Source of the DNA: Candidatus Shapirobacteria bacterium
GTDB lineage: Bacteria > Patescibacteriota > Microgenomatia > UBA12405 > BS750m-G30
Length of the DNA: 64,000 nucleotides
Direction of reading: 5' to 3'
NCBI GenBank assembly: GCA_016783425.1
Contig: JADHWP010000001.1
Location: 7,272 to 71,271 of the forward strand
Part shown: piece after piece, positions 4,031 through 61,547 of the stretch
Layout: every line of letters begins with the position of its first letter
Numbering within the stretch: position 1 is the first letter of the stretch
Notes under the pieces: model-generated
The model's database searches: none
Seen by the model: the letters and a program-made list of their open reading frames with translations, nothing else
Told to the model about the DNA's origin: nothing
Program-made: the position numbers and the translations under genes

Positions 4031-4121
4031 GAGCTGGCGGACTCGGGAGTAATATAATTTCTGGTATAATGATTTTAGAGGAGGAAATATCTTTATTTTA
4101 AGATAATCATAATATATCAAA

Positions 4122-5129: not shown

Positions 5130-5889
5130 ATCCTATAAGGTTGAGCTTTAAATAAAGCAAATAACTAATTAACAGCTGTATGATAGTCTTATAATAGACA
5201 TTTCCTGTTATAAATTAATTTTGGGGTATTATTTGAAATTACCAGCAATATCCAGGGGAGTTAAAGAATAAATGGGAGCCGGGGAAATGAATAATTAATT
5301 GGAACGATAATATTTAAAAACGGATTTTGGTAAAACTAAATATAGAATCTTATAAAGCTGTTTACATATTTCAACCCTGGTGATGATACGCTACCCACAG
5401 TAAGTAAAATACTAGAGGATATTGCTGTTTAAATTGGCTGCTGAAAAGGAAAGATGGATACAAGTTGAATATGTACCAGAGTGGATAAAATAATAAAGTA
5501 TAATGGTTTTTTATTAAGAGACCGAGTGAAAACAACTTATAGGATTATATTAAAGAAGGTGCTTTGGGAGGAGGTTACAAAAACCTGATCTTGAAAGAGG
5601 AAGAAATCAATTTATCCTACCCTGGAAGTGGTATAAATAGCTGGAAGGAAAGGGGAAAAGCGCTGATTGTTATTCTCTGGCAGAAGATTGATTTATTTGA
5701 TAATCTCCAGGCCGTTTAGGCAGTTGAGTTTTGCTTGAGCCTAAAAGGCCCCGGAAATGCTCTATAAGGAAAAATAAGTGACAGTGGAGGCAAAAAAGTT
5801 AATGCGGAAATTTTACTGGCTGTTAATGCTTTTTAATGAATAAATAAAAGAATATTCGGTTTTTCCATCAAAAAAGCGGTAAACTAGCT

Positions 5890-6160
5890 AAAGATCTTCT
5901 TTGTTCTGGTTTGAGGTTTTATTATCGGGAATATTTTTATCAGGCCAAAGTGGCAACTGCCTGTCCAGGAGACAACGGGCTTACTGTCTCGTGGATAAAG
6001 CCCCCCCGCCGGGATATACAAATGAGTCGCCAAAAAAGGCGCGCAGAGCGAAACAGAGAACCACAGGCTTTGTCCAGGGGCGCCTATCGGGTAAAATTGA
6101 TAACTGCCTGTTTTTTTGAGTCTCCCGGAACTCATTTAACCGGGCCTTTTTCCTTAAACG
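5890..6160 (+). ncRNA. Candidate structured ncRNA (GC-rich island in an AT-rich ORF-free region) ending in an intrinsic terminator
   Basis: Local hairpins (gagaca..tgtctc; direct repeat aactgcctgt x2); terminator hairpin cccggaactcatttaaccggg followed by a T-tract at about 6124-6158; only short overlapping ORFs. Confidence 0.3.
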
Positions 6161-6597
6161 CTCCCCTTTATTTGCGATTTCATGCCGGCGTATATGAGTA
6201 TGGCGTATATGAGTATAATGTATTTCTTTTTGTAGCGCAGGTTTTTAGGTTTTAGCAATAAAAAAAATAATTTATTAACTTTATAAATTTTTTAAAATTT
6301 AAAATAATTCTTTAAGAAAATTTTGACTTTTTGGTTAATTTTTCTGTTGATATACTTTGTTGGGCTTAATAATCGTTTGTATTTTTAGTATACTCCGTAA
6401 TATCCATTGATATACTAGTTTTAATTTACTTTCACTATTACAGCACACGGTATTAAACAGTTAGATAATCTCCGAATAATAACCTGATTTCACTGATTTC
6501 AAGCCTGGCAGATAAAATTAGAAGCGTGAAAGCGTCTCGCGTTATTAATGCACAATTTTTTGGAAGAGTTTGGTGATTTAATGAGGCGGGTGAAGTT

Positions 6598-7650
6598 TTA
6601 CTTAGATTCTTGAGCCGGAAACGCTTCTTGAAGCATAGTTAAAACTAATTTTTCAGCAGTCATTGAAGAAAGAAAAGTGGGGTATCTTTCGACTTGGTGA
6701 TCATCAAGTCTTAGTGGCCCGACTACTTGCCCGCTATCTTCCCATCTAGTCGTCATTTTAGAAACATAAACGAAAGGTTCTCTGAAATTTTCCGGAAAAA
6801 GGAGGACTCCTCCTTTTCTTTTTATTTTTACCACTGAGCCAATCGCTTTTAACCAGGTGTTTTTTTCCGCATTAGTTTCGGCATTTTTGAGTATATTTCC
6901 TAGTTGAGCGGCGATTTCGGAATTTTCAATGGTATCTGCGGCCAAAAGAAGGGGAACGGCAATAAGCGCTTTTGCTTCAAGAGCTTTTTGGCCTAAAGCT
7001 GCTAATACTTGCCGATGGAATCTAACTCTTGTTTCCGCTACCTTTTTAATTTCTTCTGGAGTTAAAGCTTGAATTTCAGGCGCTACTTTTCCGGGAAGTG
7101 AAAAAAAGCCGCCCGGTAGCTTTAAGGGTCTTCGGTCTATCTCTGCCCCTTTTTTTATTTGTTTTAATATAGCCTGAAAATCATGTAGATCATCTAGTTG
7201 GTGATAAGTGGAAGCAACTAAAGATTGAGCCATTTGTAGTTCAGCCACCCTTTTTTGTTTCCCTTCGGCCATATCAGCAAGCTGTCTTTTTCTTTCTTTT
7301 TCCAGCTTTTGCTGATCTTGCTGGTCATATATTCGTTCCTGAAAGGGAAGCTTCAGTACTTCTCTTGCTCTTTTATCTGCTTCTTTGTAGTCGGGGCTGC
7401 CCATATAACAACTCTGAATGCTTCTTTCAGCTACTTCTCCTTGATCTTGAGCAAATTTTGATGCGCTCCTCCATATATGATCAACTTTTTTCTCAATATC
7501 CTTTGGATCATTACATTCGGCTATAAGAAGCCGGACAGTCTCTGCCCTTTTTCCTTCGGGGCTAGACTCCCTTGGGGCGTGCTCTTCTAAGAGATCTTCG
7601 AGAGTAAGAGTTTGTTCTACAGCTACTTCTGCTCTAACATCTTCGCTCAT
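6598..7650 (-). CDS. Hypothetical protein (350 aa), last gene of the 9687->6598 operon
   Basis: Long ORF; no recognisable motif. Confidence 0.6.
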   Translation of the reverse strand: MSEDVRAEVAVEQTLTLEDLLEEHAPRESSPEGKRAETVRLLIAECNDPKDIEKKVDHIWRSASKFAQDQGEVAERSIQSCYMGSPDYKEADKRAREVLKLPFQERIYDQQDQQKLEKERKRQLADMAEGKQKRVAELQMAQSLVASTYHQLDDLHDFQAILKQIKKGAEIDRRPLKLPGGFFSLPGKVAPEIQALTPEEIKKVAETRVRFHRQVLAALGQKALEAKALIAVPLLLAADTIENSEIAAQLGNILKNAETNAEKNTWLKAIGSVVKIKRKGGVLLFPENFREPFVYVSKMTTRWEDSGQVVGPLRLDDHQVERYPTFLSSMTAEKLVLTMLQEAFPAQESK

Positions 7651-19038: not shown

Positions 19039-19103
19039 TACTGCCAAGCTCCAAATTACAAATAACAAGTATTCCAAATCACCGCTTCTGGCGGGATCCT
19101 GCT

Positions 19104-19148
19104 TGTCAACCTTAAAGGTTGATGACCCGATAACCTTTAAGGTTGACA
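19104..19148. repeat. Composite REP element (half-copies around a 10-bp insert tgacccgata) in the rplJ leader region
   Basis: Exact reverse complement of the composite copy at 38406. Confidence 0.85.
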
Positions 19149-19152
19149 GCAC

Positions 19153-36543: not shown

Positions 36544-36559
36544 AGTATTATATTATATC

Positions 36560-36628
36560 CAACTTGTCAGGATTTTGCAAGAGAGGTGTCAAGAAAAATA
36601 AGTCTCTGGACAATATACTATCAGTTAC
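36560..36628 (+). promoter_or_regulatory. Copy 1 of the shared upstream element (TGTCAGGATTTTGCAAGAGAGGTGTCAAGAAAAATAA) with putative promoter TTGCAA-17-ATAAGT
   Basis: Near-identical to copies at 38454 and 40526; 11-bp-phased TGTCAGG/TGCAAGA/TGTCAAG direct repeats. Confidence 0.6.
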
Positions 36629-38392: not shown

Positions 38393-38405
38393 TTATCTTA
38401 TTTGT

Positions 38406-38450
38406 TGTCAACCTTAAAGGTTATCGGGTCATCAACCTTTAAGGTTGACA
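38406..38450. repeat. Composite REP element (insert tatcgggtca), reverse complement of the 19104 copy
   Basis: Exact match in opposite orientation. Confidence 0.85.
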
Positions 38451-38453
38451 AGT

Positions 38454-38527
38454 ATTTGCCCTGTCAGGATTTTGCAAGAGAGGTGTCAAGAAAAATAAAA
38501 AGAGGTGGTTTACACTATAGGGCAAAT
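38454..38527 (+). promoter_or_regulatory. Copy 2 of the shared upstream element with conserved 5' UTR (AAGAGGTGGTTTACACTATA); inverted repeat ATTTGCCCT/AGGGCAAAT brackets it and overlaps the start codon
   Basis: 66 bp identical to copy 3; the IR arms could form a hairpin sequestering the ATG. Confidence 0.6.
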
Positions 38528-40506: not shown

Positions 40507-40525
40507 TCTAGCATATAGTTTGTCT

Positions 40526-40598
40526 ATTTGCCCTGTCAGGATTTTGCAAGAGAGGTGTCAAGAAAAATAAAAAGAGGTGGTTTACACTATAAGATAAG
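40526..40598 (+). promoter_or_regulatory. Copy 3 of the shared upstream element plus conserved 5' UTR
   Basis: Identical to copy 2 over about 66 bp. Confidence 0.6.
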
Positions 40599-42769: not shown

Positions 42770-44644
42770 ATGAGCAAGAAAAAAATTGATCCGACTGATT
42801 TTATTGAAATTGGCCGGCTTAACGGTGGCGGCCGCAAGCTTATCGTGGATTTGGATGAAATTGGGGAAATTATTGTTTCCAAAGGGAGCAAGGACGATGC
42901 CAATAAAATCAATACCCCCGAGGGTACTTCTTTTTCCTTGTCCGAATATTTAAAAAAAGAGTACGCTTTACACAAGGTTTTTTCAAAAGATGTAGCCGAA
43001 GCTCATCGCAAGGGAGACATTAAACTGCAAAAACTCCAGTTTATTGACCGACCCTATTGTTCCGGTCAGGGGTTGGAGTATATTAAAAAATTTGGCTTAA
43101 CTAAGTACGCTTCTTTTGCGGCGGTCAAGCCGGCCGGCCACATTGACGCTTTAATTGACCACATGATGCGCATGACCATGGCCTTAAGGGCCCATTTTGG
43201 CGGGGCGGTTGGCTGGGATGCGCTTAATATGTATATGGCCCCTTATCTTGGCGGCATGGGGGATCGGGAGATAAGACAAATTGCCCAAAGAATTATTTAC
43301 CAGTTCAACCAAACCGTTGGCCCGCACGGCGGCCAGCCGGTTTTTTCGGATATTAATCTTTATTGGGAGATTCCCGATCATTTTGCCAGGGTGCCGGCGA
43401 TTGGGCCAAGGGGGGAGTTTACCGGCCGAATGTACAAAGATTATGAAAAAGAAGCCCAGGCTTTAGTTTGGCAGCTTTTGAATATTTATAAAAGAGGAGA
43501 CGCTAAAGGCAAGCCTTTTTTCTGGCCCAAACCCAATGTTCATATCACTACCAGGTTTTGGCAAACTCCGGGACACGAGGAATTCTTAGAGCATGTTTGC
43601 GGCGTGGCCGCTAAAATGGGCAATCCCTATTTTATTTTTGACCGCGGTTCAGTGGCTAAAATTTCCGAATGCTGCCGCTTGCAGTTTGAGCTGTCGAAAG
43701 ACGATTTAAAAGAAGCCAAAGAGCCCTGGAAAATGCGCTACGCCGCTTGTCCTTATCTACCCGTAAACTTGCCCCGGGTAGCTTACGAGGCTAATCATGA
43801 TGAAAAAAAGTTTTTCCAAATTTTAGGCGCGCGCCTGGAGCTTTTGACCAAGGCTCATCTTCAAAAAAGCCGATTTTTAAAAAAGCTTTTGGAAATGGGG
43901 CCAACCGGGCCCTTGGGCATGCTGACCTTAACAAGCAACGGGGACAAAGAGCCGTATTTACGATTTGACAAAATGCCCTATATGAATGCGGTTGGCGGGC
44001 TTTCCGATGCGGTTAAGTTTCATCTTGGCAAGGCCCTGCATGAATCAGACGAGGCCTTGAAATTCGGTTTAAGAGTAACTGCTTTTATGAAGAAGAAAAC
44101 AGAAGAAGAAGGTAAAAAGGCGGGTTTAAAAATTCTTCTTGACCAGTCTCCGGCGGAATCAACCATGTATCGGTTTGCCAAAATGGATTTGGCCCAGTTT
44201 CCCAAACAAGCCAGGCAAATTGTTCATGGTGATCTTAAAAGCGGGCAAGTGTATTACACTAACTCTTCTCAAATTGATGTGGATGCATCTTTGGATGTTT
44301 TTGAACGGATTGAACTGGAGGGCCGATTTCATCCTTTAATGCAAGGCGGGGCCTTAACCCATATTTGGCTGGGCGAAAACTTGCCTTCGGCTAAATCTTT
44401 GGCCAGTTTAGTTAAAAAAGTCTTTTTTAAAACCCAGAATACTCAAGTCGCTTTTTCTCCGGAATTTACTTTGTGTTCTGATTGCGAGCAGACCAGCCGG
44501 GGCAAAAGAGAGAGTTGTCCTTTTTGCGGTAGCAAAAAAGTGGACTGGGTCACCCGGATTACCGGCTATTATACTTTTGTGAAGCAGTGGAATAAGGGTA
44601 AACTAGGGGAGTTAAAGGATCGGAAGAAAAACAGGATTAAATAA
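42770..44644 (+). CDS. nrdD: Anaerobic ribonucleoside-triphosphate reductase (class III), paralog 1, no ATP-cone
   Basis: 624 aa; active-site ISECCRL, C-terminal Zn-ribbon CSDCEQ...CPFCG and glycyl-radical motif RITGYY. Confidence 0.85.
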   Translation: MSKKKIDPTDFIEIGRLNGGGRKLIVDLDEIGEIIVSKGSKDDANKINTPEGTSFSLSEYLKKEYALHKVFSKDVAEAHRKGDIKLQKLQFIDRPYCSGQGLEYIKKFGLTKYASFAAVKPAGHIDALIDHMMRMTMALRAHFGGAVGWDALNMYMAPYLGGMGDREIRQIAQRIIYQFNQTVGPHGGQPVFSDINLYWEIPDHFARVPAIGPRGEFTGRMYKDYEKEAQALVWQLLNIYKRGDAKGKPFFWPKPNVHITTRFWQTPGHEEFLEHVCGVAAKMGNPYFIFDRGSVAKISECCRLQFELSKDDLKEAKEPWKMRYAACPYLPVNLPRVAYEANHDEKKFFQILGARLELLTKAHLQKSRFLKKLLEMGPTGPLGMLTLTSNGDKEPYLRFDKMPYMNAVGGLSDAVKFHLGKALHESDEALKFGLRVTAFMKKKTEEEGKKAGLKILLDQSPAESTMYRFAKMDLAQFPKQARQIVHGDLKSGQVYYTNSSQIDVDASLDVFERIELEGRFHPLMQGGALTHIWLGENLPSAKSLASLVKKVFFKTQNTQVAFSPEFTLCSDCEQTSRGKRESCPFCGSKKVDWVTRITGYYTFVKQWNKGKLGELKDRKKNRIK

Positions 44645-46809
44645 TGCCCAGCGAAATCAGCAAATACAATAATGGCAATGGCAATGGTAATGGCTTAACG
44701 ACCAAGCAGGCCAAATACCTAGAGGGCGCCAAAAAACATGGGGCAACGGATACAATGTTCTTTGTTTCTACTTCAGACGAGGCTTTAAAAGAGTGGGATG
44801 TAACCCAAATTGCCAAGCGCTTGATTATTGAAACGGGTATGGGAGAAAAGTTGGCAATGAGGATTGCCAAGGTGGTAGAGGAGAAGATTTTGGCGGCCAA
44901 GCTAAAACATGTTTCTACTAACCTTATTCGGGAATTAACCAATGCCGAGCTTCTTTTCCGGGGATTGGAAAAATATTATGACAAGCATGTGCGCTTAGGA
45001 GTGCCCATTTATGATGTTCACCAGATGCTCACCGAACAAAACAGAATTAATGCCAATGTGCCTCATAATACCGAAGCCACTAATTTGGCTTTAGCCCGGA
45101 ATATTAAAAAAGAGTATGCCTTGCGCCGGGTTTTTTCTAAAGACGTCGCTCAAGCTCATGCCAAGGGTGATCTTCACCTTCACGATTTGGATTTTGTGGA
45201 TCGGCCCTATTGTTGTGGGCAGTCAATTGAGTATGTAAAGAAATATGGCCTGGATATTGCCTCCAGTTTGGCGGTAGCCAAGCCAGCCAAATATGCCACT
45301 ACTTTGGTATTGCAGATAATTAAATTGGCTTCGATGCTCCAGGTTCATTTTGCGGGGGCGATTGGCTTTGATGCCGTTAATCTTTTTCTGGCTCCTTATT
45401 TAACTGGTTTTGGCAAAAAAGAATTAAAGCAATTGGCTCAAACTCTTCTTTTTGAATTTAATATGCAAAATATAGCCCGGGGCGGACAGGCGATTTTTTC
45501 GGACATTAATCTTTATTGGGAAGTGCCTGATCATTTTGCCGATACCCCGGCAATTGGGCCGGGGGGTAAATATACGGGTAAAAAATATCAGGATTATCAA
45601 AAAGAATCGCAAGAATTTGTTAAAGCCATTTTTGAGGTGTATTTAGAGGGAGACGGAGCGGGACGGCCTTTTTTCTGGCCTAAGCCTAATTTACATATCA
45701 CCGAGAAATTTTGGCAAACTCCGGGTCATCAAGGGTTTTTGCATCTGGCTTCTAAAGTAGCGGCCATTCGGGGCAATACTTATTTTGTTTTAGACCGGGG
45801 AGGCACAGCCCGAATCTCCGAATGCTGCCGACTGGCCTTTAATCTTAAAAAATCCGACCTTGAAGATGCTAAAAAGCCCTGGAAAATGCGTTACAGCGCG
45901 ATGCAGAATGTTTCTTTGAATTTGCCCCGTATGGCTTACAAAGCCAAGGGAAGGACTGATAAGTTATTTGAGGAAATTGAGCGGGGGATGGAGCTGTTGG
46001 CCAAGGCTCACCAACAAAAGAGGCGGTTTATCAAAAGACTTTTAGATATGGGCCTGCAAGGGCCCTTGGCCGCGCTGACTACCCGCCAGCTGGATGATAA
46101 TGAATCTTACTACCGCTTTGATAAGGCCAAGTTTTTAGTTGGTGTTTTTGGGGTTAACGAAACGGTTGAGTATTGCCTGGGAAAGCAGATGCACGAAAGC
46201 GATCAAGCGCTTAAACTGGGCCTAAAGATTGTTTCCCAAATGAAGAAAAAAGCGGAAATTTTAAGTAAGCGGGATAAAATGGAGTATGTTTTGGAGCAAA
46301 CTCCAGCGGAAGGGTTAACTTACCGTTTTGCTAAATTAGATAAGCGCTTTTATCCCAAAGAGGCCAAAAAAGTGATTAAGGGTAATTGGGAGGAAGATTA
46401 TATTTACTACACCAATTCCACCCAGCTTAATGTGTCCGAACCTATTGACCCTATTGAAAGAGTAACTAAAGAAGGTCTTTTTCATCCTCTAATTGACGCT
46501 GGAGCAATCAGCCATATTTGGCTCGGGGAGCAAAATCCGGATCCAAAGGCGATTGCCAGTTTTGTGAAAAAAACCTTTGATCACACCCAAAACGGCTTAA
46601 TTGCTTTTTCCCCCGAGTTTACGATTTGTGATTCTTGTATGGCAACCAGCCGGGGACTAAAAGATAACTGCCCCAAATGCGGTTCTGAAGAGGTAGACGG
46701 AGTTACTCGAGTGACTGGTTTTTATTCTCGCGTTAGCCGTTGGAATAAAGGAAAAATAGGCGAGCTAAAAGATCGGTATCGAAACGCGGGAAAGTTTCGT
46801 GATTCGTAA
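44644..46809 (+). CDS. nrdD: Anaerobic ribonucleoside-triphosphate reductase (class III), paralog 2, with N-terminal ATP-cone-like domain and NGNGNGNG repeat
   Basis: 721 aa; same motifs (ISECCRL; CDSCM...CPKCG; RVTGFY) plus an about 100-aa N-terminal ATP-cone-like region; tandem aatggc repeats at 44680-44703. Confidence 0.85.
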   Translation: MPSEISKYNNGNGNGNGLTTKQAKYLEGAKKHGATDTMFFVSTSDEALKEWDVTQIAKRLIIETGMGEKLAMRIAKVVEEKILAAKLKHVSTNLIRELTNAELLFRGLEKYYDKHVRLGVPIYDVHQMLTEQNRINANVPHNTEATNLALARNIKKEYALRRVFSKDVAQAHAKGDLHLHDLDFVDRPYCCGQSIEYVKKYGLDIASSLAVAKPAKYATTLVLQIIKLASMLQVHFAGAIGFDAVNLFLAPYLTGFGKKELKQLAQTLLFEFNMQNIARGGQAIFSDINLYWEVPDHFADTPAIGPGGKYTGKKYQDYQKESQEFVKAIFEVYLEGDGAGRPFFWPKPNLHITEKFWQTPGHQGFLHLASKVAAIRGNTYFVLDRGGTARISECCRLAFNLKKSDLEDAKKPWKMRYSAMQNVSLNLPRMAYKAKGRTDKLFEEIERGMELLAKAHQQKRRFIKRLLDMGLQGPLAALTTRQLDDNESYYRFDKAKFLVGVFGVNETVEYCLGKQMHESDQALKLGLKIVSQMKKKAEILSKRDKMEYVLEQTPAEGLTYRFAKLDKRFYPKEAKKVIKGNWEEDYIYYTNSTQLNVSEPIDPIERVTKEGLFHPLIDAGAISHIWLGEQNPDPKAIASFVKKTFDHTQNGLIAFSPEFTICDSCMATSRGLKDNCPKCGSEEVDGVTRVTGFYSRVSRWNKGKIGELKDRYRNAGKFRDS

Positions 46810-54543: not shown

Positions 54544-55665
54544 ATGTTTACAGCTAAAAAGCTAGTTATTTATCTTTCTCGGGACAGGCTTAAGGTGGGC
54601 TGGGTAATCTTGGGCCGAGAACCCAAGCTTGCCGGGGTAAAGGAGTATCCTTGGAAAGAGAAAAAGCTAGCCGAAGCGCTAGCAATAGTTAAAACAGATT
54701 TTAAATACGAAAAGGTTTGGGTCGTACTTTCGGATACTTTAAGCTATACTTTGAGATTTGAAGTGCCGGAAACCGAGAAAGATGTCCGGGAGTATGTGGC
54801 TGGTAAGGTGGCGGAAGGGATTCCGGAGATCTTGGAAAATGACTATTGGGATTACAAGGTTACCGAAAAAAGTAAAAAGGGCAAGAAGGTAGAAGTTTTT
54901 GCCCCTGTTAAAGATTTACTGGTGCAATTGAGTCGAGCAGCCAAAAAAGTGGGCTTGGAAGTAGAAGTAATCGAGCCCGCTTCTTTATCCGCTACTCGGC
55001 ATCAGGAGCCGATGATAGGAGTAGCCATGAAAAAAGATATTCAGGGCAAGGATGAGGAAGTCTTAAATGTTGAACCACCAAAAGTTGTGGTGGTGGAAGA
55101 AGAAGCCTGGTCAAAAGAAGAAGAAAAGGAGGAGGAGAAAAAAGAAGAAGATAGTGGGGAAGTAGTTGAAACAATACCTGTTTTTTCGGAGAGCAAAAAG
55201 AAATTGCCGGTATTTTTAATTATTTTAATTTTAACTGCCGGAACAATTGGAGTTTTTTTACTTAGTCGGGTGATAACTAAAAAACAATCTCAAATTGAGC
55301 CTGTTGCGATTCCAACTCTGGCTGAAGAACCCACTTCCACGCCAGAGCCGGAATTAAGCAGGGAGGACTTAATTATTCAAGTTCAAAATGGAACCGGCGA
55401 GCCGGGAGCGGCAGGAGAAGGACAAGATCTTTTAGAAGGCCTAGGCTACCGGGAAGTGGAAACCGGCAACGCTCCTTCTTATAGTTATAAGGAATCGGAA
55501 ATTTCTTTGAAAGAAGAAAAAGCCGCCTACTTTGATTTGCTTTTTGCGGATTTAGGCGTCGAATATTTGGTTAGTTCGGAATCTTCAGTTTTGGATGAGG
55601 ATTCGGACTATGACGCAGTTATTATTTTAGGGGAAAGGGCTGAAGAAGAGGAAGTAGCAGAGTAA
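54544..55665 (+). CDS. Membrane protein with acidic linker and C-terminal LytR_C domain
   Basis: 373 aa; TM helix at about 215-235; C-terminal IQVQNGTGEPGAAGEGQDLLEGLGY LytR_C signature. Confidence 0.6.
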   Translation: MFTAKKLVIYLSRDRLKVGWVILGREPKLAGVKEYPWKEKKLAEALAIVKTDFKYEKVWVVLSDTLSYTLRFEVPETEKDVREYVAGKVAEGIPEILENDYWDYKVTEKSKKGKKVEVFAPVKDLLVQLSRAAKKVGLEVEVIEPASLSATRHQEPMIGVAMKKDIQGKDEEVLNVEPPKVVVVEEEAWSKEEEKEEEKKEEDSGEVVETIPVFSESKKKLPVFLIILILTAGTIGVFLLSRVITKKQSQIEPVAIPTLAEEPTSTPEPELSREDLIIQVQNGTGEPGAAGEGQDLLEGLGYREVETGNAPSYSYKESEISLKEEKAAYFDLLFADLGVEYLVSSESSVLDEDSDYDAVIILGERAEEEEVAE

Positions 55666-55834
55666 AAAAGATTTGACAATTGCTCAAGCAGTGTTTTATA
55701 CTCAAGTTGTTATTGGTTTTTTAGGGAAAGTTGGAAAGATTGACTTTTTGGCAGATAACCTTTTTGGACTCCAGCAGTATTCTTTCGAAAATGACTTTTT
55801 CAAAATAAATTTATAAGAGGGGGTGAGATAATTA

Positions 55835-56245
55835 ATGGCACCAATTAAACTTTATGTAGGTAATTTACCCTGGTCGGCAACCTCGGACGATTTAGGACAG
55901 AAATTTTCTGAAGCCGGAACTGTAGTTTCCGCGCAAGTGGTTACCGATCGTTACTCTGGTCGTTCCCGCGGTTTTGCTTTTGTGGAAATGGAAACTCAAG
56001 AAATGGCGGATAAAGCGATCGAGATGTTCAATGGCAAAGACCTTGATGGCCGGGAAATTGTGGTTAACATTGCCCGACCCAGGGAAGAAGGGGCAGAAAC
56101 AGGAGGTCAAAGCATGACTCCGCCTCCCGCTGATGATCAAACGGATCAACCGGTTGTGGATGATCCAGTAGTCGCTGATCCGGTTAAGGAAGAAGTGGAA
56201 GTAGAGCTTCCTGCGGTAGAGGAAGAAGAAAAACCAGCTAAATAA
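55835..56245 (+). CDS. RRM-type RNA-binding protein with acidic C-terminal tail
   Basis: 136 aa; RNP-2 (LYVGNL) and RNP-1 (RGFAFVEM) motifs. Confidence 0.85.
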   Translation: MAPIKLYVGNLPWSATSDDLGQKFSEAGTVVSAQVVTDRYSGRSRGFAFVEMETQEMADKAIEMFNGKDLDGREIVVNIARPREEGAETGGQSMTPPPADDQTDQPVVDDPVVADPVKEEVEVELPAVEEEEKPAK

Positions 56246-56291
56246 AAAAAGTTGGAAACTAAAAATACCCCCTTTTTAGGGGGTATTTTTT

Positions 56292-56368
56292 TGGAGCCTG
56301 GAGTGGGATTCGAACCCACGACCTCGAACTTACCAAGTTCGCGCTCTTGCCGACTGAGCTATCCAGGC
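56292..56368 (-). tRNA. tRNA-Thr (anticodon GGT)
   Basis: Reverse complement folds: acceptor gcctgga/tccaggc, anticodon loop ttggtaa, GTTCGAATC T-loop, CCA encoded. Confidence 0.85.
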
Positions 56369-56395
56369 ATTGCAACGGGCAAGTTTACCAACTGA

Positions 56396-56434
56396 CCCGC
56401 CTGCCAAAGCTTGAGCTTGGCGATTGCGGGCAGG
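56396..56434. repeat. 39-bp element (internally palindromic), inverted-repeat partner of 58238-58277; 38/39 identity
   Basis: cccgcctgccaaagcttgagcttggcgattgcgggcagg versus the reverse complement at 58238-58277. Confidence 0.8.
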
Positions 56435-56488
56435 GCTACCTGGGCAAAACTTTGCTAATTTTATCACAAATTAGGGTAGAATATCTTA

Positions 56489-57199
56489 ATGTCTAAGTTT
56501 AAAGTTAGCTGTATTATTCCTGCCTATAATGAGGTTAAGAATATCAAGAGGGTTTTGGCTCTTTTGGTTAACTTTCCCTTATTAAGCGAAATTATTGTGG
56601 TTAATGATGGCTCAACCGATAAAACGGGAGAAATAGTTAAAAATAATTTTCCTCAAGTTAGGCTAATAATCTTACCTAAAAATCAAGGGAAAGCAGATGC
56701 TTTAATTGCGGGAGCCAAGGCGGCCAAACACCCAGTTTTATTTTTTTGTGACGCCGATTTAATTAATCTTAAAAAAACCCACCTAAATTCCCTAATTAAG
56801 CCGGTGCTTGGAAAAAAAGTAAAAATGATGGTCGGCGCCCAGGAGTTTATGGCTCCTAACCGATTAAGTAAAAAGTGGCGCAGTAAAAACAAAATGAATG
56901 AGTTTTTAAAAGGCTTAGGAGGAGAAAAAGTTCTTTTTAAGAAAGATTTTTTAAAAATTCCCAATATTGAGAATTCTGATTACGGGGTTGAGCACAAAAT
57001 TATCAATTATTTTCAAAAAAACAAGCTTCCTTTTGATTATTTGGTTTTAAAGGGAGTGACTCATCTTCACAAGGTTGAAAAGTGGGGGATTATGGAGGGA
57101 GCGATCAGGGATCTGAACTCTTACTTTACTTTTGCCTGCCAGTTTTTGGAGAAATTGGGAAAAAAAATTAAAAGTTTTTTTGAAAGTAGATTATCTTAA
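56489..57199 (+). CDS. Family 2 glycosyltransferase
   Basis: 236 aa; SCIIPAYNE...VVNDGSTD...DAD GT2-A fold motifs. Confidence 0.85.
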   Translation: MSKFKVSCIIPAYNEVKNIKRVLALLVNFPLLSEIIVVNDGSTDKTGEIVKNNFPQVRLIILPKNQGKADALIAGAKAAKHPVLFFCDADLINLKKTHLNSLIKPVLGKKVKMMVGAQEFMAPNRLSKKWRSKNKMNEFLKGLGGEKVLFKKDFLKIPNIENSDYGVEHKIINYFQKNKLPFDYLVLKGVTHLHKVEKWGIMEGAIRDLNSYFTFACQFLEKLGKKIKSFFESRLS

Positions 57200-57999
57200 T
57201 TTTCTTCGACCAGATATTTTTTAGCCTTTTGGTAGCTAATACGGAGATACGAAGCCAAGTTTTTCAAAAATTCAGTTTTAGCCCTTTCCCGGTAGCTGGC
57301 AGTTTTAACGGACATGGTTTTTAAAAATATTTCCCAAACTTCTTTGGCAAAAGAAGCAGCCCAGTCCGGCTCTTTTTCCATTTTAAACAAGCGGTCTTTT
57401 TTATTAAAAATAGTGGGTAATACCACGATTTTTTTATCTTTATAAGCTTCATTAAGAATAACTTCTAAACCATAATTGGTTTTTTCAATTTGGGAAATTA
57501 AAGGAAGAATATCTTTTTTTTTCAAACAGCGCTGGCCGGAAAAACGCCAGAGCAAAAAAGTAGAGCCTTTTAAATTAACCGGAATGCCAATGGTCATATC
57601 CGCCTTATTGCTGATTACCGGGTAGATTAAGGTAAAAATATGGTGGTTTTCATAATTCATTAAGTCCGCATCCAAAAAAAGCAAATAAGGATGAGAAGCT
57701 ATTTTTACTCCTTGAGTGATGGCGTAACCTTTGCCTCGGTTTTTAGGAAGATTAACAATCTTAATTTTTTCCCCAAAAGTCCTTAGTTTTTCGAGGGTTT
57801 TGTCCTGGGAGCCATCATTAACTGCAATTACCTCGGCAATGTCTGGGCTTTTTAAGCAAGTGCGAACCATCCCGGCCACAGTTCTTGCTTCGTTGTAGGC
57901 GGGGATAATACAGCTGACTTTTTTATTGCTCACAGCTTGAATTATCTTAAAAAAAGGGGCAATTGTCAAGAAAACCTTGCTTGTAATCTTACTTCTCAA
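57196..57999 (-). CDS. Family 2 glycosyltransferase
   Basis: 267 aa; SCIIPAYNE...VNDGSQD...DADL motifs; convergent with the previous GT2 gene. Confidence 0.85.
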   Translation of the reverse strand: MRSKITSKVFLTIAPFFKIIQAVSNKKVSCIIPAYNEARTVAGMVRTCLKSPDIAEVIAVNDGSQDKTLEKLRTFGEKIKIVNLPKNRGKGYAITQGVKIASHPYLLFLDADLMNYENHHIFTLIYPVISNKADMTIGIPVNLKGSTFLLWRFSGQRCLKKKDILPLISQIEKTNYGLEVILNEAYKDKKIVVLPTIFNKKDRLFKMEKEPDWAASFAKEVWEIFLKTMSVKTASYRERAKTEFLKNLASYLRISYQKAKKYLVEEN

Positions 58000-58625
58000 T
58001 TGTCATGCTAAATCTGTTTCAGCACTTTTTAGTGAGATTATTTCAAAAGTCATTCTGATCCCGACGTTACGTCGGGAGAAGAATCTAGCGAAGCCAGGTG
58101 CAACACTGTACCTGGCGAAGCGCAAACACGCTCCCCCGACTAACGTCGGGATTGCTAGATCCCTCCCTCGCCTGCTGGCGGGTCGGGATGACAACCGGGC
58201 CGTCATTCTGACAAATTAACAACCGTCATGCTGAATTCCTGCCCGCAATCGCTAAGCTCAAGCTTTGGCAGGCGGGGTATTTCAGCATCGATCCTGAAAC
58301 AAGTTCAGGATGACGCTAGGCGAGTTCAGAGCCTGCCCCGAATTCATTTCGGGGATGACACTTGGCGTGGGCAGTTCAGATGTCAAAAAAGGGTGACAAT
58401 TGAGACGTTAAGCTACAATTCTAACTGGCGGTGTGCTTTCGAAAAAATTCGAACTGATTTCGCCCAAAATTTGTAGGGCGGGCGGAATTTCCCCCAGATC
58501 CCCCTTCCGCCCGCCGCACCTGTCCGCCTCTGGCGGAGAAGCGACCCTTTCGGATTGGACGATTTCAAGTTTTTCGTTCCGCTATAAGCGGAACTCTGGG
58601 CTTCGCCCAGTTTGGCGGCAAATTC
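58000..58625. other. ORF-free, GC-rich region densely packed with short and long-range inverted repeats (candidate large structured RNA or nest of palindromic elements)
   Basis: More than 10 hairpins; contains IR partner 58238-58277. Confidence 0.4.
58238..58277. repeat. Inverted-repeat partner of 56396-56434
   Basis: Reverse complement matches 38/39. Confidence 0.8.
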
Positions 58626-58627
58626 TT

Positions 58628-59581
58628 CTATTTTTGTTCTCTTAATTTTTCGAGCGTAGCTCGAATCTCTGGCGAGACTTGTTGATTAGCCAACACTCTT
58701 TCAATAAATTTAGGAATTTTTCTTTCGTATGCGGGCGGATTTTCTTCCCCCTCGTTCATACGAATATGCAATCCTTCCATTGCGTCCTCATAATCTGTAA
58801 GTACTTGCTGAGTGATTTGACCCAACTCTTCCTCGCTATACATTTCTCGTAATGCCCCGAGAAGTTTTCCGAAGTCAGCGTTAAATTTTTCCGGTTTTTG
58901 CTCATAGCTTTGGAGTAAATGTAAAACTTTGTAGGCGAGAATGGTATCGGGTCTTGCAACATAGTAATCTTGCCCCTCAACATTTACTTTCGCAATTCTC
59001 CTCGCCCCATATGCTTCAACGGGGTCGCACATTACCTTAATTTGATTTTCTCCTTGCTTCAAAACTTTGCGCCCTTCTTCTGGAACTTCGTCAAAAGAGG
59101 GGCCACCACCACCCTTTTTTAATCTTACAGGACTGGCTTTATAGTGGTCGGTAGGCACATAATCCAAGTCGCCAATCTGGCGTGCAAAAGAAGCTAAAAT
59201 TATTCTGGCTGATTCAGGTATTTCTCTAGTACGGGCTTCGGCTAAAGCGGGAATTTGAGTCTCGTCCATTTCAGTAAATCTTTCAGCGCGAGATAAAAGC
59301 ATAGAGGCCAAAGAGCCGGAAAGATAATAATTCATTCTTGCTTCTGTTTCTATTCCTTCGGGGAGCTCCGGTAATTCAACTGTCGTCCCCTTATCATCAA
59401 TTTCTATAACTGGCTTTCTACCAGAATCTACTTGTGGCCAGCGACCAGTTAAATATTCTGCAAATTTCGTTGCCGATTCTAAAATTTCTTTTTGTTCAGG
59501 CGTGATTTCTATTTCCGGCTTCTCCACTCTGGGGGCTTCTTGTGGAGGAGTAAATTGTGGTTGTGGTTCAAAGTTTTCCAT
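58628..59581 (-). CDS. Hypothetical protein (317 aa) with atypical codon usage
   Basis: Long ORF; Pro/Glu-rich N-terminus; codon choice (CCA, AGA) differs from surrounding genes. Confidence 0.6.
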   Translation of the reverse strand: MENFEPQPQFTPPQEAPRVEKPEIEITPEQKEILESATKFAEYLTGRWPQVDSGRKPVIEIDDKGTTVELPELPEGIETEARMNYYLSGSLASMLLSRAERFTEMDETQIPALAEARTREIPESARIILASFARQIGDLDYVPTDHYKASPVRLKKGGGGPSFDEVPEEGRKVLKQGENQIKVMCDPVEAYGARRIAKVNVEGQDYYVARPDTILAYKVLHLLQSYEQKPEKFNADFGKLLGALREMYSEEELGQITQQVLTDYEDAMEGLHIRMNEGEENPPAYERKIPKFIERVLANQQVSPEIRATLEKLREQK

Positions 59582-59652
59582 ATTTTATTCTTCTATAAAA
59601 TAATCTGAATCAATTTTTTTGTTATACGACAGTTTTTTTGAATTATCTTTTT

Positions 59653-60468
59653 TCATAATGCTTTAAGTAAGCTGGTTTGATTAAGATTTTTTTGTTTCAA
59701 ATCCTTTGGTGTTCTTGACTCTCTTGGATCAAAGGAATCCAACATATTCGTTTCTTTCTTAATTCTATTTTCAGACATTTTAATGTAATCAGGGTTTATA
59801 TCAATCCCAATCCATTTTCTATTAAGAAAGTTGGCTACAACACTGGTTGTTCCGCTTCCAATAAAAGGGTCAAGCACAAGATCGTTTTTATTACTACTTG
59901 CGAGTATTATTCTTTTCATCAACGCTTCTGGTTTTTGTGTCGGGTGTTTTACTCTTTCGGGATTAGAGTAATGAACATGAGAAAATTTCCAAACATCGCC
60001 CGGATTTGCACCCCTCATGTTATTTCGTTCTCTATAGTACTTCTGTGGAATTCTTACCTCATCTAGATTGAAGGTAAAATTGTCTGATTTTGTAAAATAC
60101 AAAATATCCTCATGCCTTGGTGAGAATCCCTTTGTTCGTCCCATTCCTTGTGTATAGTGCCAAGTTATCCAACTGTTGAAATGAAAATCGAGTTTTTGGA
60201 GTATTAAAAATAGTCGGGAAATAAACCTAACTCCCATAAAAACATAGATACTGCCCGTGTCTTTCAAAATTCTTTTACTTTCTGTCAGCCAATCCAAAGT
60301 AAATTGTTCATATTCGTGCCATTGCTTCCAGTCGATATTATTTCCGTAATCTTTACCTAAATTATAGGGAGGGTCGGTGCAAATCAAATCAACGCTTCCA
60401 TCGGGAAGTTTTTTTAATTCCTCTATTGCGCTTCCTGTAATAAAATAATTGCTATTCATGTTATTCAC
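59653..60468 (-). CDS. DNA methyltransferase (N6-adenine or N4-cytosine, beta-class; DPPY motif)
   Basis: 271 aa; motif IV TDPPY precedes motif I DPFIGSGTT. Confidence 0.85.
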   Translation of the reverse strand: MNNMNSNYFITGSAIEELKKLPDGSVDLICTDPPYNLGKDYGNNIDWKQWHEYEQFTLDWLTESKRILKDTGSIYVFMGVRFISRLFLILQKLDFHFNSWITWHYTQGMGRTKGFSPRHEDILYFTKSDNFTFNLDEVRIPQKYYRERNNMRGANPGDVWKFSHVHYSNPERVKHPTQKPEALMKRIILASSNKNDLVLDPFIGSGTTSVVANFLNRKWIGIDINPDYIKMSENRIKKETNMLDSFDPRESRTPKDLKQKNLNQTSLLKAL

Positions 60469-61234
60469 TAGATTTCAACCAATTAAATTTTTCAGCAAGC
60501 TTTATCCAAGGCTTAAGCCCCTTTGATTTTATGTATTTATTATCAATCATTTTTATAAATTGCTCTACGGTTTTTCTTTCTTCATCAACATAATGAATGT
60601 CTTTAATCTGCATTTGGCCAGTGCCTAATGCCGGATTGTAATTTAAGTCCTTAGCCGAAACATATTTGATATCATAAACATGATATGCTGTTATTTGCAT
60701 AATCCCATTCGTAATCCCGTCATCGTCTATTTTCTCACTAAATACTTTATGTTTTAGCGAGAGAACTAGAAAAATATAATCTGGATCATTTAAATATTCA
60801 TTTCTTATTCTTGCGAATGAAGTAATATTTGGGCTTTTCCCAGAAGTTAAAATATCTTCAGCTGTTGCTTTCGAATCCACATTTGCAGAAACATAGTCAT
60901 CTATACCTTTTAGTTTAAATTGCAAAATCATATCAAAGGGGTCGAGCCTTTTCCCTACCTCAACATTAACTAGGCCATATTTATTTCCCACCTTATCTGA
61001 TATTTCTTCAAATTTTTCTAAAGCCCATGCTTCAACAAATGGGCCAGCAACTTTGTTTATATTCTCCAGGGGCAACCCTCGTTTAAGATTTGTTCTAATA
61101 AAAATTTTATTGTTTCCACTGTCAATTGCTTCTTTAATTATCTCTCGAATTGCACCACATGCTCCATTAGACATTTTTGGATATAATGCTGATTCTTTTG
61201 GTAGTTTGCGTCTTTTCAAAATATTGTTTTTCAT
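60461..61234 (-). CDS. Putative type II restriction endonuclease (partner of the adjacent methyltransferase)
   Basis: 257 aa; 8-bp overlap with the MTase gene; candidate PD-(D/E)xK region (DMILQFK); no other homology. Confidence 0.5.
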   Translation of the reverse strand: MKNNILKRRKLPKESALYPKMSNGACGAIREIIKEAIDSGNNKIFIRTNLKRGLPLENINKVAGPFVEAWALEKFEEISDKVGNKYGLVNVEVGKRLDPFDMILQFKLKGIDDYVSANVDSKATAEDILTSGKSPNITSFARIRNEYLNDPDYIFLVLSLKHKVFSEKIDDDGITNGIMQITAYHVYDIKYVSAKDLNYNPALGTGQMQIKDIHYVDEERKTVEQFIKMIDNKYIKSKGLKPWIKLAEKFNWLKSSE

Positions 61235-61261
61235 AATATTTATTTCATTAAATTATCTAAC

Positions 61262-61432
61262 GTAATACCTAATCCTTTAGCAACCTTCATTACTGTTTGA
61301 ATAGTGGGTTTGGTGATGACATTTGTTTCAATTTTGGTCAGCATTGTATAAAGAAGATCAGATTTTCTCGCCAATTCATCCTGCGTTAAACCGTGCTTGT
61401 TTAACCCTTCATAAATATGCTAACAAATAAAA
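61262..61432 (-). pseudogene. XRE-family HTH (controller/C-protein-like) gene lacking a canonical start; abuts tRNA-Ser
   Basis: Reverse translation gives ...LNKHGLTQDELARKSDLLYTMLTKIETNVITKPTIQTVMKVAKGLGITLDNLMK; in-frame TAG only 4 codons upstream of the first helix. Confidence 0.45.
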
Positions 61433-61460
61433 TGAAAACAGTCCAATTAAAAATTCTAAC

Positions 61461-61547
61461 TGGCGGAGGGGGTGGGATTTGAACCCACAAGAGCTTGCGC
61501 TCGCCGGTTCTCAAAACCGGTGGAATAGCCGTTATCCGACCCCTCCA
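61461..61547 (-). tRNA. tRNA-Ser (anticodon TGA) with long variable arm
   Basis: Acceptor ggagggg/cccctcc; anticodon stem ccggt/accgg, loop tttgaga; long variable arm; CCA encoded. Confidence 0.8.

What the first reader, a model, noticed from the sequence alone, without database searches (positions are those of the whole stretch)
56396..58625. GT2 gene pair bracketed by a 39-bp inverted repeat, followed by a 600-bp ORF-free hairpin-dense GC-rich region
cccgcctgccaaagcttgagcttggcgattgcgggcagg (56396-56434) and its reverse complement (58238-58277, 38/39 identical) flank two convergent glycosyltransferase genes. IR-bracketed segments are the architecture of invertible or phase-variable or excisable modules. 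No recombinase gene is seen inside. The right-hand IR lies within a 620-bp stretch (58000-58625) much more GC-rich than its surroundings. That stretch contains at least ten hairpins and long-range complementary segments (gggagaagaatctagc / gctagatccctccc) and has no ORF. It may be a large structured RNA or a pile-up of palindromic mini-elements. RNase P and tmRNA signature motifs were looked for and not found.
Basis: seen in the sequence. Interest (0 to 1): 0.55.

Follow-up and report, generated by a model that had tools for sequence, protein, structure and literature searches.

The report
REP hairpin pile beside defence island
The 39-bp inverted repeat and the GC-rich hairpin stretch are real, but the stretch is a pile of known "CGTC-tagged" palindromic mini-repeats joined to the tail of a mobile defence island inserted at a tRNA-Ser gene, and nothing indicates a gene-flipping switch or a large RNA.

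Summary
There is a 38/39 inverted repeat (56396-56434 / 58238-58276) around two convergent GT2 genes. Next to it lies a locally GC-rich, hairpin-dense stretch with no credible gene.

The switch interpretation is not supported.
- The GT2 pair is native. Relatives at 73% nucleotide identity keep the same synteny but have neither the repeat nor the GC-rich DNA.
- Both genes carry their promoter regions inside the repeat-bounded segment.
- No recombinase lies nearby.
- Every contig recovered from other samples that crosses a repeat junction shows the same orientation.

The "620-bp stretch" is two things.
- 58432-58627 is the conserved hairpin tail of a 3-kb integrated island. The island carries a type II restriction-modification system and a MenT/AbiEii-like toxin. 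An exact 15-bp direct repeat containing the tRNA-Ser 3' end brackets it.
- 57983-58416 is a nested cluster of CGTC-tagged REP hairpins (Di Nocera 2013). One unit is identical over 24 nt to copies in more than 120 genome stretches from many phyla.

The right repeat copy fills the loop of one such hairpin. The left copy is solitary. Rfam finds nothing, and both strands fold equally well. A co-occurring strain variant diverges exactly at the block's left edge.

Verdict: a new member of known kinds, of low to moderate interest.

The parts
56292..56368 (-). tRNA-Thr(GGT), 27 nt from the left repeat copy. Relatives carry a PIG-L gene at this position instead.
   Evidence: ARAGORN; Rfam 71.4 bits; gene order in relatives
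56396..56434 (+). Left copy of the 39-bp repeat. It is solitary, 67% GC, sits in an AT-rich spacer, and ends 54 nt upstream of the GT2#1 start codon.
   Evidence: identical in all 7 contigs from other samples that span it
56489..57199 (+). GT2 glycosyltransferase #1 (236 aa)
   Evidence: Pfam PF00535, 9.3e-27; NCBI MBL7078100
57196..57933 (-). GT2 glycosyltransferase #2 (245 aa with the GTG start used by NCBI). It is a 39%-identical paralogue of #1.
57941..57969 (-). GT2#2 promoter-like site, TTGACA-17-GATAAT (11/12). It lies inside the repeat-bounded segment, and relatives have the equivalent site.
57983..58416 (.). 435-bp, 50% GC nested cluster of CGTC-tagged REP hairpins. Units: 58002-58025; the dimer 58049-58192 with a structured spacer; a half unit 58201-58211; 58224-58289; 58290-58315; 58332-58360. 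The left edge coincides with the point where a co-occurring strain variant diverges. A possible 25-nt imperfect terminal inverted repeat lies at 57981-58005 / 58394-58418.
   Evidence: family definition in PMC3733652
58238..58276 (-). Right copy of the 39-bp repeat. It fills the loop of the REP hairpin CGTC-ATGCTGAA...TTCAGCAT (58224-58289).
   Evidence: (pair I13)
58417..58431 (+). Distal copy of the exact 15-bp direct repeat AATTCTAACTGGCGG (att-like). It marks the end of the integrated island.
   Evidence: 2 copies; 0.01 expected
58432..58627 (-). 54% GC hairpin tail downstream of the toxin gene. Hairpins lie at 58438-58453, 58477-58515, 58523-58537, 58576-58594 and 58596-58610. The tail is conserved with the gene in other genomes.
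   Evidence: 82-87% nt identity in L026-L036; 2 compensatory pairs and a precise 35-36-nt presence/absence unit; coordinates
58628..59581 (-). 317-aa protein with a MenT/AbiEii-like nucleotidyltransferase fold, likely a toxin. No Pfam family matches it.
59653..60468 (-). Type II N6/N4 DNA methyltransferase
   Evidence: Pfam PF01555, 1.8e-68; PADLOC MTase_II, 2.5e-88
60461..61234 (-). Type II restriction endonuclease
   Evidence: PADLOC REase_II PDLC03492, 5.6e-78
61240..61374 (-). Small HTH_3 protein, either a controller or an antitoxin
   Evidence: Pfam PF01381, 4.3e-5; weakly homologous to the HTH gene that precedes the 317-aa gene in L026
61452..61466 (+). tRNA-proximal copy of the 15-bp direct repeat. 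It overlaps the last 6 nt (CCGCCA) of tRNA-Ser.
61461..61546 (-). tRNA-Ser(TGA). In relatives this gene directly abuts the GT2#2 promoter.

Best explanation
The locus is a tRNA-linked insertion hotspot in a Candidatus Shapirobacteria (Patescibacteria) genome. Two kinds of foreign, GC-rich, hairpin-forming DNA have accumulated next to a native pair of paralogous GT2 genes.

Shown:
1. In relatives the GT2#2 promoter directly abuts tRNA-Ser and tRNA-Arg. Here about 3.5 kb (57983-61460) lies between them.
2. A 3,035-bp island lies between the two copies of an exact 15-bp direct repeat that includes the tRNA-Ser 3' end. Repeat plus island is 58417-61451 or 58432-61466, depending on which copy is counted. 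It carries an HTH gene, a type II REase and MTase, and a MenT/AbiEii-like nucleotidyltransferase. Its 195-bp hairpin tail travels with the toxin gene in many other Patescibacteria contigs. There the module sits beside serine or tyrosine recombinases.
3. The remaining 435 bp (57983-58416) is a nested cluster of CGTC-tagged REP hairpins. These have a CGTC or TGTC tag, an 8-bp stem starting with AT, and a 4-5-nt loop. They form inverted dimers with tags outward, and some have structured spacers or expanded loops.

Inferred:
4. The 39-bp repeat is one more GC-rich, imperfectly palindromic module of this hairpin population. One copy sits in the loop of a REP hairpin. The other is a solo copy in the tRNA-Thr/GT2#1 spacer.
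5. The pair arose by a recent copy event (38/39 identity). The route could be mini-element mobility or templated repair, and the direction of copying is unresolved.
6. It acts, if at all, only as a passive substrate for rare homologous inversion. Such an inversion would have no regulatory effect, because both genes carry their promoters with them.
For: Organism and gene calls.

Native GT2 pair: relatives L015-L018 keep LytR_C-RRM-(PIG-L)-GT2#1-GT2#2. Homology covers only window 56498-57959, and tRNA-Arg and tRNA-Ser abut the GT2#2 promoter there.

Island:
- The 15-bp direct repeat occurs at 58417-58431 and 61452-61466, with 0.01 copies expected.
- The 317-aa gene plus its tail is 82-87% identical in L026-L036, beside a serine recombinase (L026), a tyrosine integrase (L029) or other R-M genes (L027).
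- The conserved terminus ...AACTGGCGGTGTGC is joined to 10 different upstream sequences.
- The protein has an NTase toxin fold.

Strain variability:
- L002 diverges from the window exactly at 57982.
- L021 and L025 differ from the window beside tRNA-Arg.
- L010 diverges just inside the tRNA-Arg 3' end, at 61673.
- Other contigs break at 58048, 58102 and 58181.

REP cluster:
- The motif GTCATNCTGA occurs 4 times in 58049-58314 and nowhere else in the window.
- Unit 58290-58315 reads CGTC-ATCCTGAA-CTTGT-TTCAGGAT.
- Its 24-mer is exact in more than 120 GTDB stretches across many phyla. It is usually followed by an inverted partner with a covarying stem.
- The same nested and half-site piles occur in other Patescibacteria loci.
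- The family definition comes from PMC3733652.

39-mer:
- It has sharp edges.
- It folds poorly on its own (z -1.1 and -0.25) but sits between the ATGCTGAA / TTCAGCAT stems.
- It is absent from relatives, and no exact copy was found in GTDB representative genomes, JGI metagenomes or IMG/VR.

No switch:
- The GT2#2 promoter at 57941-57969 is inside the segment.
- All contigs that cross a repeat junction show one orientation.
- tblastn with one serine and one tyrosine recombinase found nothing in the window.
Against: - The origin of the two 39-mer copies is inferred, not shown. The 39-mer has no CGTC tag, and no third copy was found anywhere.
- Only consensus assemblies were examined, not reads. 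A minority inverted population cannot be excluded.
- Only 64 kb of the genome could be scanned. A genome-wide copy count of the 39-mer, or a trans-acting recombinase, cannot be ruled out.
- The island carries no recombinase of its own here, so its mode of integration is inferred from the repeat and from homologous modules.
- The REP cluster has no homologue as a whole (JGI scan for the core of the 58049-58192 dimer was negative). Its history as successive insertions is inferred from nesting.
- Several units depart from the canonical 4-5-nt loop.
Confidence: 0.6

Rival explanations
1. Programmed inversion (inverton or phase variation). A recombinase encoded elsewhere flips the 1.8-kb GT2 cassette between the 39-bp sites to vary surface glycans.
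For: A near-perfect 39-bp inverted repeat with sharp edges and partial dyad symmetry brackets surface-glycan genes. One Logan contig (L007) starts 2 nt inside the left arm.
Against: - Both genes keep their promoter regions inside the segment, so flipping changes nothing obvious.
- No recombinase lies in or next to the segment, and tblastn with one serine and one tyrosine recombinase found nothing in the window.
- All contigs from other samples that cross either junction show one orientation.
- The right site lies in DNA that one co-occurring strain replaces with other sequence from position 57983 on.
- Relatives lack both sites.
Confidence: 0.07
2. Shared cis-regulatory site. The 39-mer is an operator or upstream element placed in the same relative orientation ahead of each GT2 gene, and it co-regulates the two paralogues.
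For: Because the genes converge and the copies are inverted, each gene sees the element in the same orientation upstream. The element also contains an imperfect dyad, GCCAAAGC-TTGA-GCTTGGC.
Against: - The distances to the start codons differ strongly: 54 nt for GT2#1 and about 300 nt for GT2#2, beyond the conserved promoter.
- 38/39 identity with sharp edges looks like a recent copy rather than a selected binding site.
- No further copy lies upstream of any other gene in the window.
- Relatives lack it.
- Strain variant L002 lacks the right copy within 486 nt of the breakpoint.
Confidence: 0.1
3. The 58000-58625 stretch encodes one large structured non-coding RNA.
For: Folding energy is far below shuffles (z -8.0 on the plus strand). 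The tail hairpins show 2 compensatory pairs across homologues.
Against: - The minus strand folds equally well (z -6.8).
- No Rfam family matches, even at E<=10.
- The stretch is two unrelated segments split by an att-like repeat.
- The hairpins are modular. A 35-36-nt unit is precisely present or absent.
- The left half is made of a repeat family that occurs in both orientations in unrelated genomes.
Confidence: 0.04
4. A mobile insertion cassette or composite transposon. The repeats are transposon ends that brought the GT2 pair in as cargo.
For: 39-bp terminal inverted repeats without an internal transposase resemble mobile insertion cassettes and Tn3-derived miniature elements (from knowledge of those families).
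Against: - Relatives that lack the repeats have the GT2 pair in the same place and orientation.
- There is no target-site duplication. The outer flanks are ...actga and gtatt....
- The right end is embedded in a hairpin loop of another element.
Confidence: 0.03

Closest known systems
CGTC-tagged REP elements (Di Nocera, De Gregorio & Rocco 2013, BMC Genomics 14:522; includes Neisseria dRS3 and Rickettsia RPE-4/6)
   Same: The block's hairpins have an unpaired CGTC or TGTC tag, an 8-bp stem that begins with AT, a 4-5-nt loop and a short tail. They form inverted dimers with variable, sometimes structured, spacers. No transposase is linked to them. One unit is identical over 24 nt to copies in Sphingomonadales, Bacteroidota, Treponema and other groups.
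   Different: - Here they form one dense nested cluster, which the paper calls rare.
- None occurs elsewhere in the 64 kb.
- Several units have loops expanded by inner hairpins or by the 39-mer.
- The host phylum, Patescibacteria, is not among the five phyla in that paper.
REPIN/RAYT systems (Bertels & Rainey 2011)
   Same: Two palindromic units in inverted orientation can fold into one long hairpin. They are non-autonomous and lie outside genes.
   Different: REPINs carry GTAG-type tags and a cognate single-copy RAYT transposase. No RAYT or other Y1 transposase was seen among the genes scanned around the locus here, and no protein family recurs next to 120 loci that hold this hairpin.
tRNA-linked integrative islands and mobile restriction-modification units
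   Same: The island is inserted at the 3' end of a tRNA gene and flanked by a short direct repeat that contains the tRNA end. It carries defence cargo (R-M plus toxin), varies between strains, and its homologous modules sit beside integrases.
   Different: This copy has no integrase. The direct repeat is only 15 bp and covers only the last 6 nt of the tRNA.
Invertons and phase-variable invertible segments (Hin/Gin, Fim, Bacteroides capsule promoters)
   Same: A segment next to surface-glycan genes is bracketed by inverted repeats.
   Different: There is no nearby recombinase. No promoter or gene fragment would be switched by flipping. No second orientation was observed. The sites are absent from relatives, and one of them is strain-variable.
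AbiE / MenAT nucleotidyltransferase toxin-antitoxin systems
   Different: - It matches no Pfam, NCBIfam or PADLOC model.
- The G-S and D-x-D motifs are unusually far apart.
- In this window the R-M genes lie between the HTH gene and the toxin gene.

Membership tests
CGTC-tagged REP | Unpaired CGTC (or TGTC/CCTC) tag at one end of the palindrome | tested here: met
   CGTC at 58201-58204, at 58224-58227, and at 58315-58312 on the minus strand. TGTC ahead of the units at 58002, 58360 (minus) and 58192 (minus). AGTC at 58048.
CGTC-tagged REP | Stem of 8-9 bp that starts with AT, and a loop of 4-5 nt | tested here: inconclusive
   Fully met by 58290-58315 (ATCCTGAA / CTTGT / TTCAGGAT). Nearly met by 58002-58025. 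Stems are met, but loops are expanded to 19-45 nt, in 58049-58085 and 58224-58289.
CGTC-tagged REP | Units mostly paired as inverted dimers, with spacers up to about 100 bp that may hold small stem-loops | tested here: met
   58049-58192 has tags outward and a spacer with three hairpins (z -7.5). 58224-58315 is a second dimer. The same layout occurs in most of 87 copies from other genomes.
CGTC-tagged REP | Many dispersed copies per genome | tested here: not met
   All units lie within 435 bp, and none occurs elsewhere in the 64-kb window. The rest of the genome could not be searched.
CGTC-tagged REP | No dedicated flanking transposase | tested here: met
   None lies near the block. No protein family recurs in 120 loci that carry the hairpin.
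Inverton / invertible phase-variation segment | Inverted repeats bracket the segment | tested here: met
   39 nt, 38/39.
Inverton / invertible phase-variation segment | A site-specific recombinase encoded in or next to the segment | tested here: not met
   Pfam scans of the genes from 54544 to 61234 show none. tblastn with a serine and a tyrosine recombinase finds nothing in the window.
Inverton / invertible phase-variation segment | Both orientations present in the population | tested here: not met
   All contigs that cross a junction (L001-L006, L008, L009) show one orientation. Raw reads were not available, so a minority form is not excluded.
Inverton / invertible phase-variation segment | Flipping reconnects a promoter or exchanges coding segments | tested here: not met
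   The GT2#2 promoter (57941-57969) and the 54-nt GT2#1 upstream region both lie inside the segment.
tRNA-linked integrative island | DNA present between a tRNA gene and its ancestral neighbour, bracketed by direct repeats that include the tRNA 3' end | tested here: met
   Relatives have tRNA-Ser next to the GT2#2 promoter. The exact 15-bp repeat occurs at 58417-58431 and 61452-61466.
tRNA-linked integrative island | Own integrase | tested here: not met
   None lies between the repeats. Homologous modules sit beside a serine recombinase (L026) or a tyrosine integrase (L029).
Known structured RNA family (Rfam 15) | Match to a covariance model | tested here: not met
   Only tRNAs reach the gathering score. 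Nothing credible in 57950-58700 at E<=10.
MenT/AbiEii nucleotidyltransferase toxin (317-aa island protein) | NTase fold with the G-S ... D-x-D catalytic signature | tested here: met

The most novel reading that the evidence does not exclude
The block records ongoing, loop-targeted insertion of hairpin modules. CGTC-tagged REPs, and the untagged 39-mer, insert into each other's loops. An unknown, widely shared enzyme mobilises them, and it also keeps a 24-nt unit identical across many phyla, including Patescibacteria. Under this reading the 39-bp inverted repeat is a fresh product of that activity. It could secondarily let the GT2 cassette flip.
Probability: 0.12. Interest if true: 0.6.

Novelty: new member of a known kind. 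Interest (0 to 1): 0.27.

Why it matters
For this genome the result removes a tempting false lead. There is no sign of a phase-variation switch for glycan genes and no new large RNA.

Three things remain mildly useful.
1. CGTC-tagged REPs were described in five phyla with no known transposase. They also occur in Patescibacteria and other phyla, with one 24-nt unit conserved exactly. That sharpens the open question of how they spread.
2. The nested and half-site piles here and in other Patescibacteria give concrete material for testing whether hairpin loops are insertion targets.
3. A Patescibacteria-wide, un-named MenT-like toxin family with a conserved hairpin tail and a tRNA-mimicking end is a recognisable mobile defence module. 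It also fragments metagenome assemblies.

Tried and rejected
- Exact scans for the 39-mer in GTDB representative genomes (35-nt pattern), and in JGI metagenomes and IMG/VR (central 25-mer), found nothing.
- A JGI scan for the core of the 58049-58192 dimer and an IMG/VR scan for the island end found nothing.
- BLAST of 57983-58640 against phages found nothing. Against plasmids it found only the 36-nt REP hairpin.
- A literature search by sequence strings found only primers and other noise.
- A protein search with the 82-aa ORF that spans the right repeat copy hit only the island terminus, not the repeat.
- tRNA linkage of the REP hairpin in other genomes was rejected: 1 of 60 loci has a tRNA.
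- A recurrent neighbouring gene was rejected: at most 5 of 120 loci share any family.
- A bias for gene orientation around the hairpin was not seen.
- The 25-nt terminal inverted repeat of the block (20/25) is kept only as a weak feature. Locus L026 shares the outer 7 nt as flank, and a 12-nt perfect match is near chance in 5 kb.
- I considered the 39-mer as a relic of the old inverted duplication that made the two GT2 genes. I rejected this because the genes are only 39% identical and relatives lack the 39-mer.
- Sigma-54, Xer/dif, Tn3-end and serine-integrase att readings of the 39-mer were considered by eye. None fitted.
Full report
**Observation**

The inverted repeat is real. Its arms are 56396-56434 and 58238-58276, 39 nt, 38/39 complementary. 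These are the only two copies in the window, with none expected by chance. Similarity ends sharply at the 39 nt.

Between the arms lie two convergent family-2 glycosyltransferase genes, 56489-57199 (+) and 57196-57933 (-). They are 39%-identical paralogues.

The stretch 58000-58625 is 50-54% GC. The neighbouring genes are 32-42% GC. The mechanical ORFs of 67-82 aa give no sign of coding. The three plus-strand ORFs of 70-82 aa have no Pfam match, and NCBI annotated nothing there.

**Organism and neighbours**

Proteins identical to those in the window are named Candidatus Shapirobacteria (Patescibacteria) by NCBI.
- To the left lie a LytR_C protein, an RRM protein and tRNA-Thr(GGT) at 56292-56368.
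- To the right lie a 317-aa orphan, a type II DNA methyltransferase, a type II restriction enzyme, a small HTH protein, tRNA-Ser and tRNA-Arg.

**What is ancestral**

The nearest relatives recovered share 73% nucleotide identity (L015-L018). They keep the order LytR_C, RRM, (PIG-L), GT2#1, GT2#2. Homology to the window covers only 56498-57959, so they have neither repeat copy nor any GC-rich stretch.

In those relatives the GT2#2 promoter (TTGACA ... GATAAT) is directly preceded by tRNA-Ser and tRNA-Arg. In the window the same promoter sits at 57941-57969, but tRNA-Ser is 3.5 kb away. So 57983-61460 is inserted DNA.

The GT2 pair is native and in its ancestral orientation. The same spot is also a hotspot in the relatives: L017 and L015 carry an 85-nt palindromic insert right after tRNA-Ser, and L018 lacks it.

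**The right-hand 195 bp belongs to an integrated island**

An exact 15-bp direct repeat, AATTCTAACTGGCGG, occurs at 58417-58431 and 61452-61466, with 0.01 copies expected. The second copy overlaps the last six bases of tRNA-Ser.

The 317-aa gene has copies more than 90% identical at the protein level in many other contigs. A small HTH gene usually precedes it. It sits beside a large serine recombinase (L026), a tyrosine integrase (L029) or other restriction-modification genes (L027).

Nucleotide homology of 82-87% continues past the stop codon, through the hairpins of 58432-58627, to ...GCACACCGCCA.
- One hairpin shows two compensatory changes.
- A 35-36-nt two-hairpin unit is precisely present or absent.

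Translating across the end shows the same terminus joined to ten different upstream sequences.

This is therefore a defence island integrated at tRNA-Ser, with restriction-modification genes, a MenT/AbiEii-like toxin and a hairpin tail. It has no integrase of its own here.

**The left-hand 435 bp is a cluster of known mini-repeats**

The motif GTCATNCTGA occurs four times in 58049-58314 and nowhere else in 64 kb.

The unit at 58290-58315 reads, on the minus strand, CGTC-ATCCTGAA-CTTGT-TTCAGGAT.
- It matched Sphingomonas and Sphingobium plasmids at 34/36.
The hosts include Patescibacteria, Sphingomonadales, Bacteroidota, Treponema, Firmicutes, Campylobacterota, Dependentiae, Elusimicrobia and Melainabacteria.
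- In most of these loci an inverted partner hairpin ending in ATGAC, with a covarying stem, follows 15-60 nt later. The flanks are otherwise unrelated.
- No neighbouring protein family recurs. There is no tRNA linkage and no gene-orientation bias.

These features match the CGTC-tagged REP superfamily of Di Nocera et al. 2013 (PMC3733652). That family has:
- an unpaired CGTC or TGTC tag;
- a stem of 8-9 bp starting with AT;
- a loop of 4-5 nt and a short tail;
- mostly inverted dimers, with spacers of 20-100 bp that may carry small stem-loops;
- clusters only rarely;
- no dedicated transposase.

It was reported in five phyla.

In the window the units are nested and partly broken.
- 58049-58192 is a dimer with a three-hairpin spacer (z -7.5).
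- 58201-58211 is a half unit.
- 58224-58289 and 58290-58315 form an abutting dimer.
- Further units lie at 58002-58025 and 58332-58360.

Other Patescibacteria loci show the same peculiarities:
- tandem half-sites (L114, L115);
- one hairpin inside the loop of another (L074);
- a dimer beside tRNA genes (L105).

**Strain variation**

A co-occurring strain (L002) is identical to the window up to 57982 and then has unrelated sequence with a 143-aa ORF. That point is exactly the left edge of the block.

Other contigs show further variation:
- some end at 58048, 58102 or 58181;
- L021 and L025 differ from the window beside tRNA-Arg;
- L010 diverges just inside the tRNA-Arg 3' end, at 61673.

So the region between GT2#2 and tRNA-Arg is hypervariable.

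**The 39-mer itself**

- It is 67% GC and only a weak hairpin on its own (z -1.1 and -0.25).
- It has partial dyad symmetry.
- The right copy fills the loop of the REP hairpin ATGCTGAA ... TTCAGCAT (58228-58235 / 58281-58288). Intact units have a 4-5-nt loop there.
- The left copy is solitary, in the AT-rich spacer between tRNA-Thr and GT2#1.
- No other copy or core-dyad match occurs in the window or in any fetched locus from other species.
- Its stems (CCGCC / GGCGG type) and CAGG tail resemble the other GC-rich hairpin modules here. That kinship is an inference.

**Tests of the switch idea**

Every contig from other samples that crosses a junction shows the window's orientation. No recombinase is present. 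Both genes carry their promoter regions inside the segment, so flipping would not switch anything obvious. Only assemblies could be checked, not reads.

**Tests of the RNA idea**

Rfam gives only tRNAs at gathering score and nothing credible at E<=10. The two strands fold equally well (z -8.0 and -6.8). That is what DNA palindromes give. The stretch is also a composite of two unrelated segments.

**Most likely mechanism**

GC-rich hairpin DNA of two kinds has piled up at a tRNA-linked hotspot beside native GT2 genes. One kind is REP mini-repeats. The other is the tail of a defence island. The 39-bp repeat is a recently copied hairpin-type module, present once in a REP loop and once solo. It is a passive by-product rather than a device. 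I put about 0.6 on this, 0.07 on programmed inversion, 0.1 on a shared regulatory site, and less on the other readings.

**Novelty**

The finding is a new member of known kinds. The side result has modest interest: CGTC-tagged REPs reach Patescibacteria and several more phyla, with one unit conserved exactly.

Noticed in passing
window 3985-4031, 19103-19149, 38405-38451; halves at 14604, 15368, 35996; also L020 5993-6039: The genome has its own dispersed 47-nt double palindrome, TTGTCAACCTTAAAGGTTGA...TAACCTTTAAGGTTGACA. Copies are up to 95-100% identical and occur in both orientations. It is unrelated to the 39-mer. Each half contains TTGACA on both strands.
   Followed up: partly
window 38453-38519 and 40525-40591 (100% identical); 36556-36622 (73%): A 67-nt repeat, TATTTGCCCTGTCAGGATTTTGCAAGAGAGGTGTCAAG..., occurs three times within 4 kb. 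Two copies start just downstream of the stop codon of a minus-strand ORF, and one directly follows a copy of the 47-nt palindrome.
   Followed up: no
window 5130-6600: A 1.5-kb stretch has almost no long ORF, and 5900-6240 is GC-rich. No Rfam family reaches the gathering score there.
   Followed up: no
GTDB loci L037-L156: The exact 24-mer GTCATCCTGAACTTGTTTCAGGAT occurs in genomes of many phyla. These include Patescibacteria, Firmicutes, Campylobacterota, Dependentiae, Elusimicrobia and Melainabacteria, none of which is among the five phyla listed for CGTC REPs in the 2013 survey. How one unit stays identical across phyla is unexplained.
   Followed up: partly
L115 1090-1190; L114 6790-6890; L074 6911-6960: Other Patescibacteria loci carry tandem arrays of REP half-sites (TTCAGGATGAC plus 10-12 nt, period 21-23). 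One hairpin is nested in the loop of another. This hints that loops or tags are insertion points.
   Followed up: no
window 58628-59581; L026-L036: The 317-aa protein belongs to a Patescibacteria-wide family without any Pfam, NCBIfam or PADLOC model. It has a MenT4/TglT-like fold. It usually follows a small HTH gene and always carries a GC-rich hairpin tail that ends in a tRNA-like ...CACCGCCA.
   Followed up: yes
L021 1-49 and L025 1-24 (next to the tRNA-Arg 3' end); L010 1-49: Strain variants replace the spacer beside tRNA-Arg with other sequence that carries GC-rich hairpins (GGTCGCCGAGCGAAGCGAGGCGAC; GCCGCCGCAGGCGGCG). L010 diverges just inside the tRNA 3' end.
   Followed up: partly
L017 about 1836-1920 versus L018: In the 73%-identity relatives, an 85-nt AT-rich palindromic insert directly follows tRNA-Ser in L017 and L015 but is absent in L018. 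The two groups also carry different tRNA-Ser anticodon and variable arms.
   Followed up: no
window 58490, 58497, 58499: The only differences between the window and contig L001/L009 in the region from the GT2 genes to the toxin gene are three substitutions in the loop of the long hairpin 58477-58515. The stems are untouched.
   Followed up: no
window 42770-44644 and 44644-46809: Two adjacent long ORFs share several 59-141-nt segments at 71-74% identity with a constant 2153-nt offset. They are therefore tandem paralogues.
   Followed up: no
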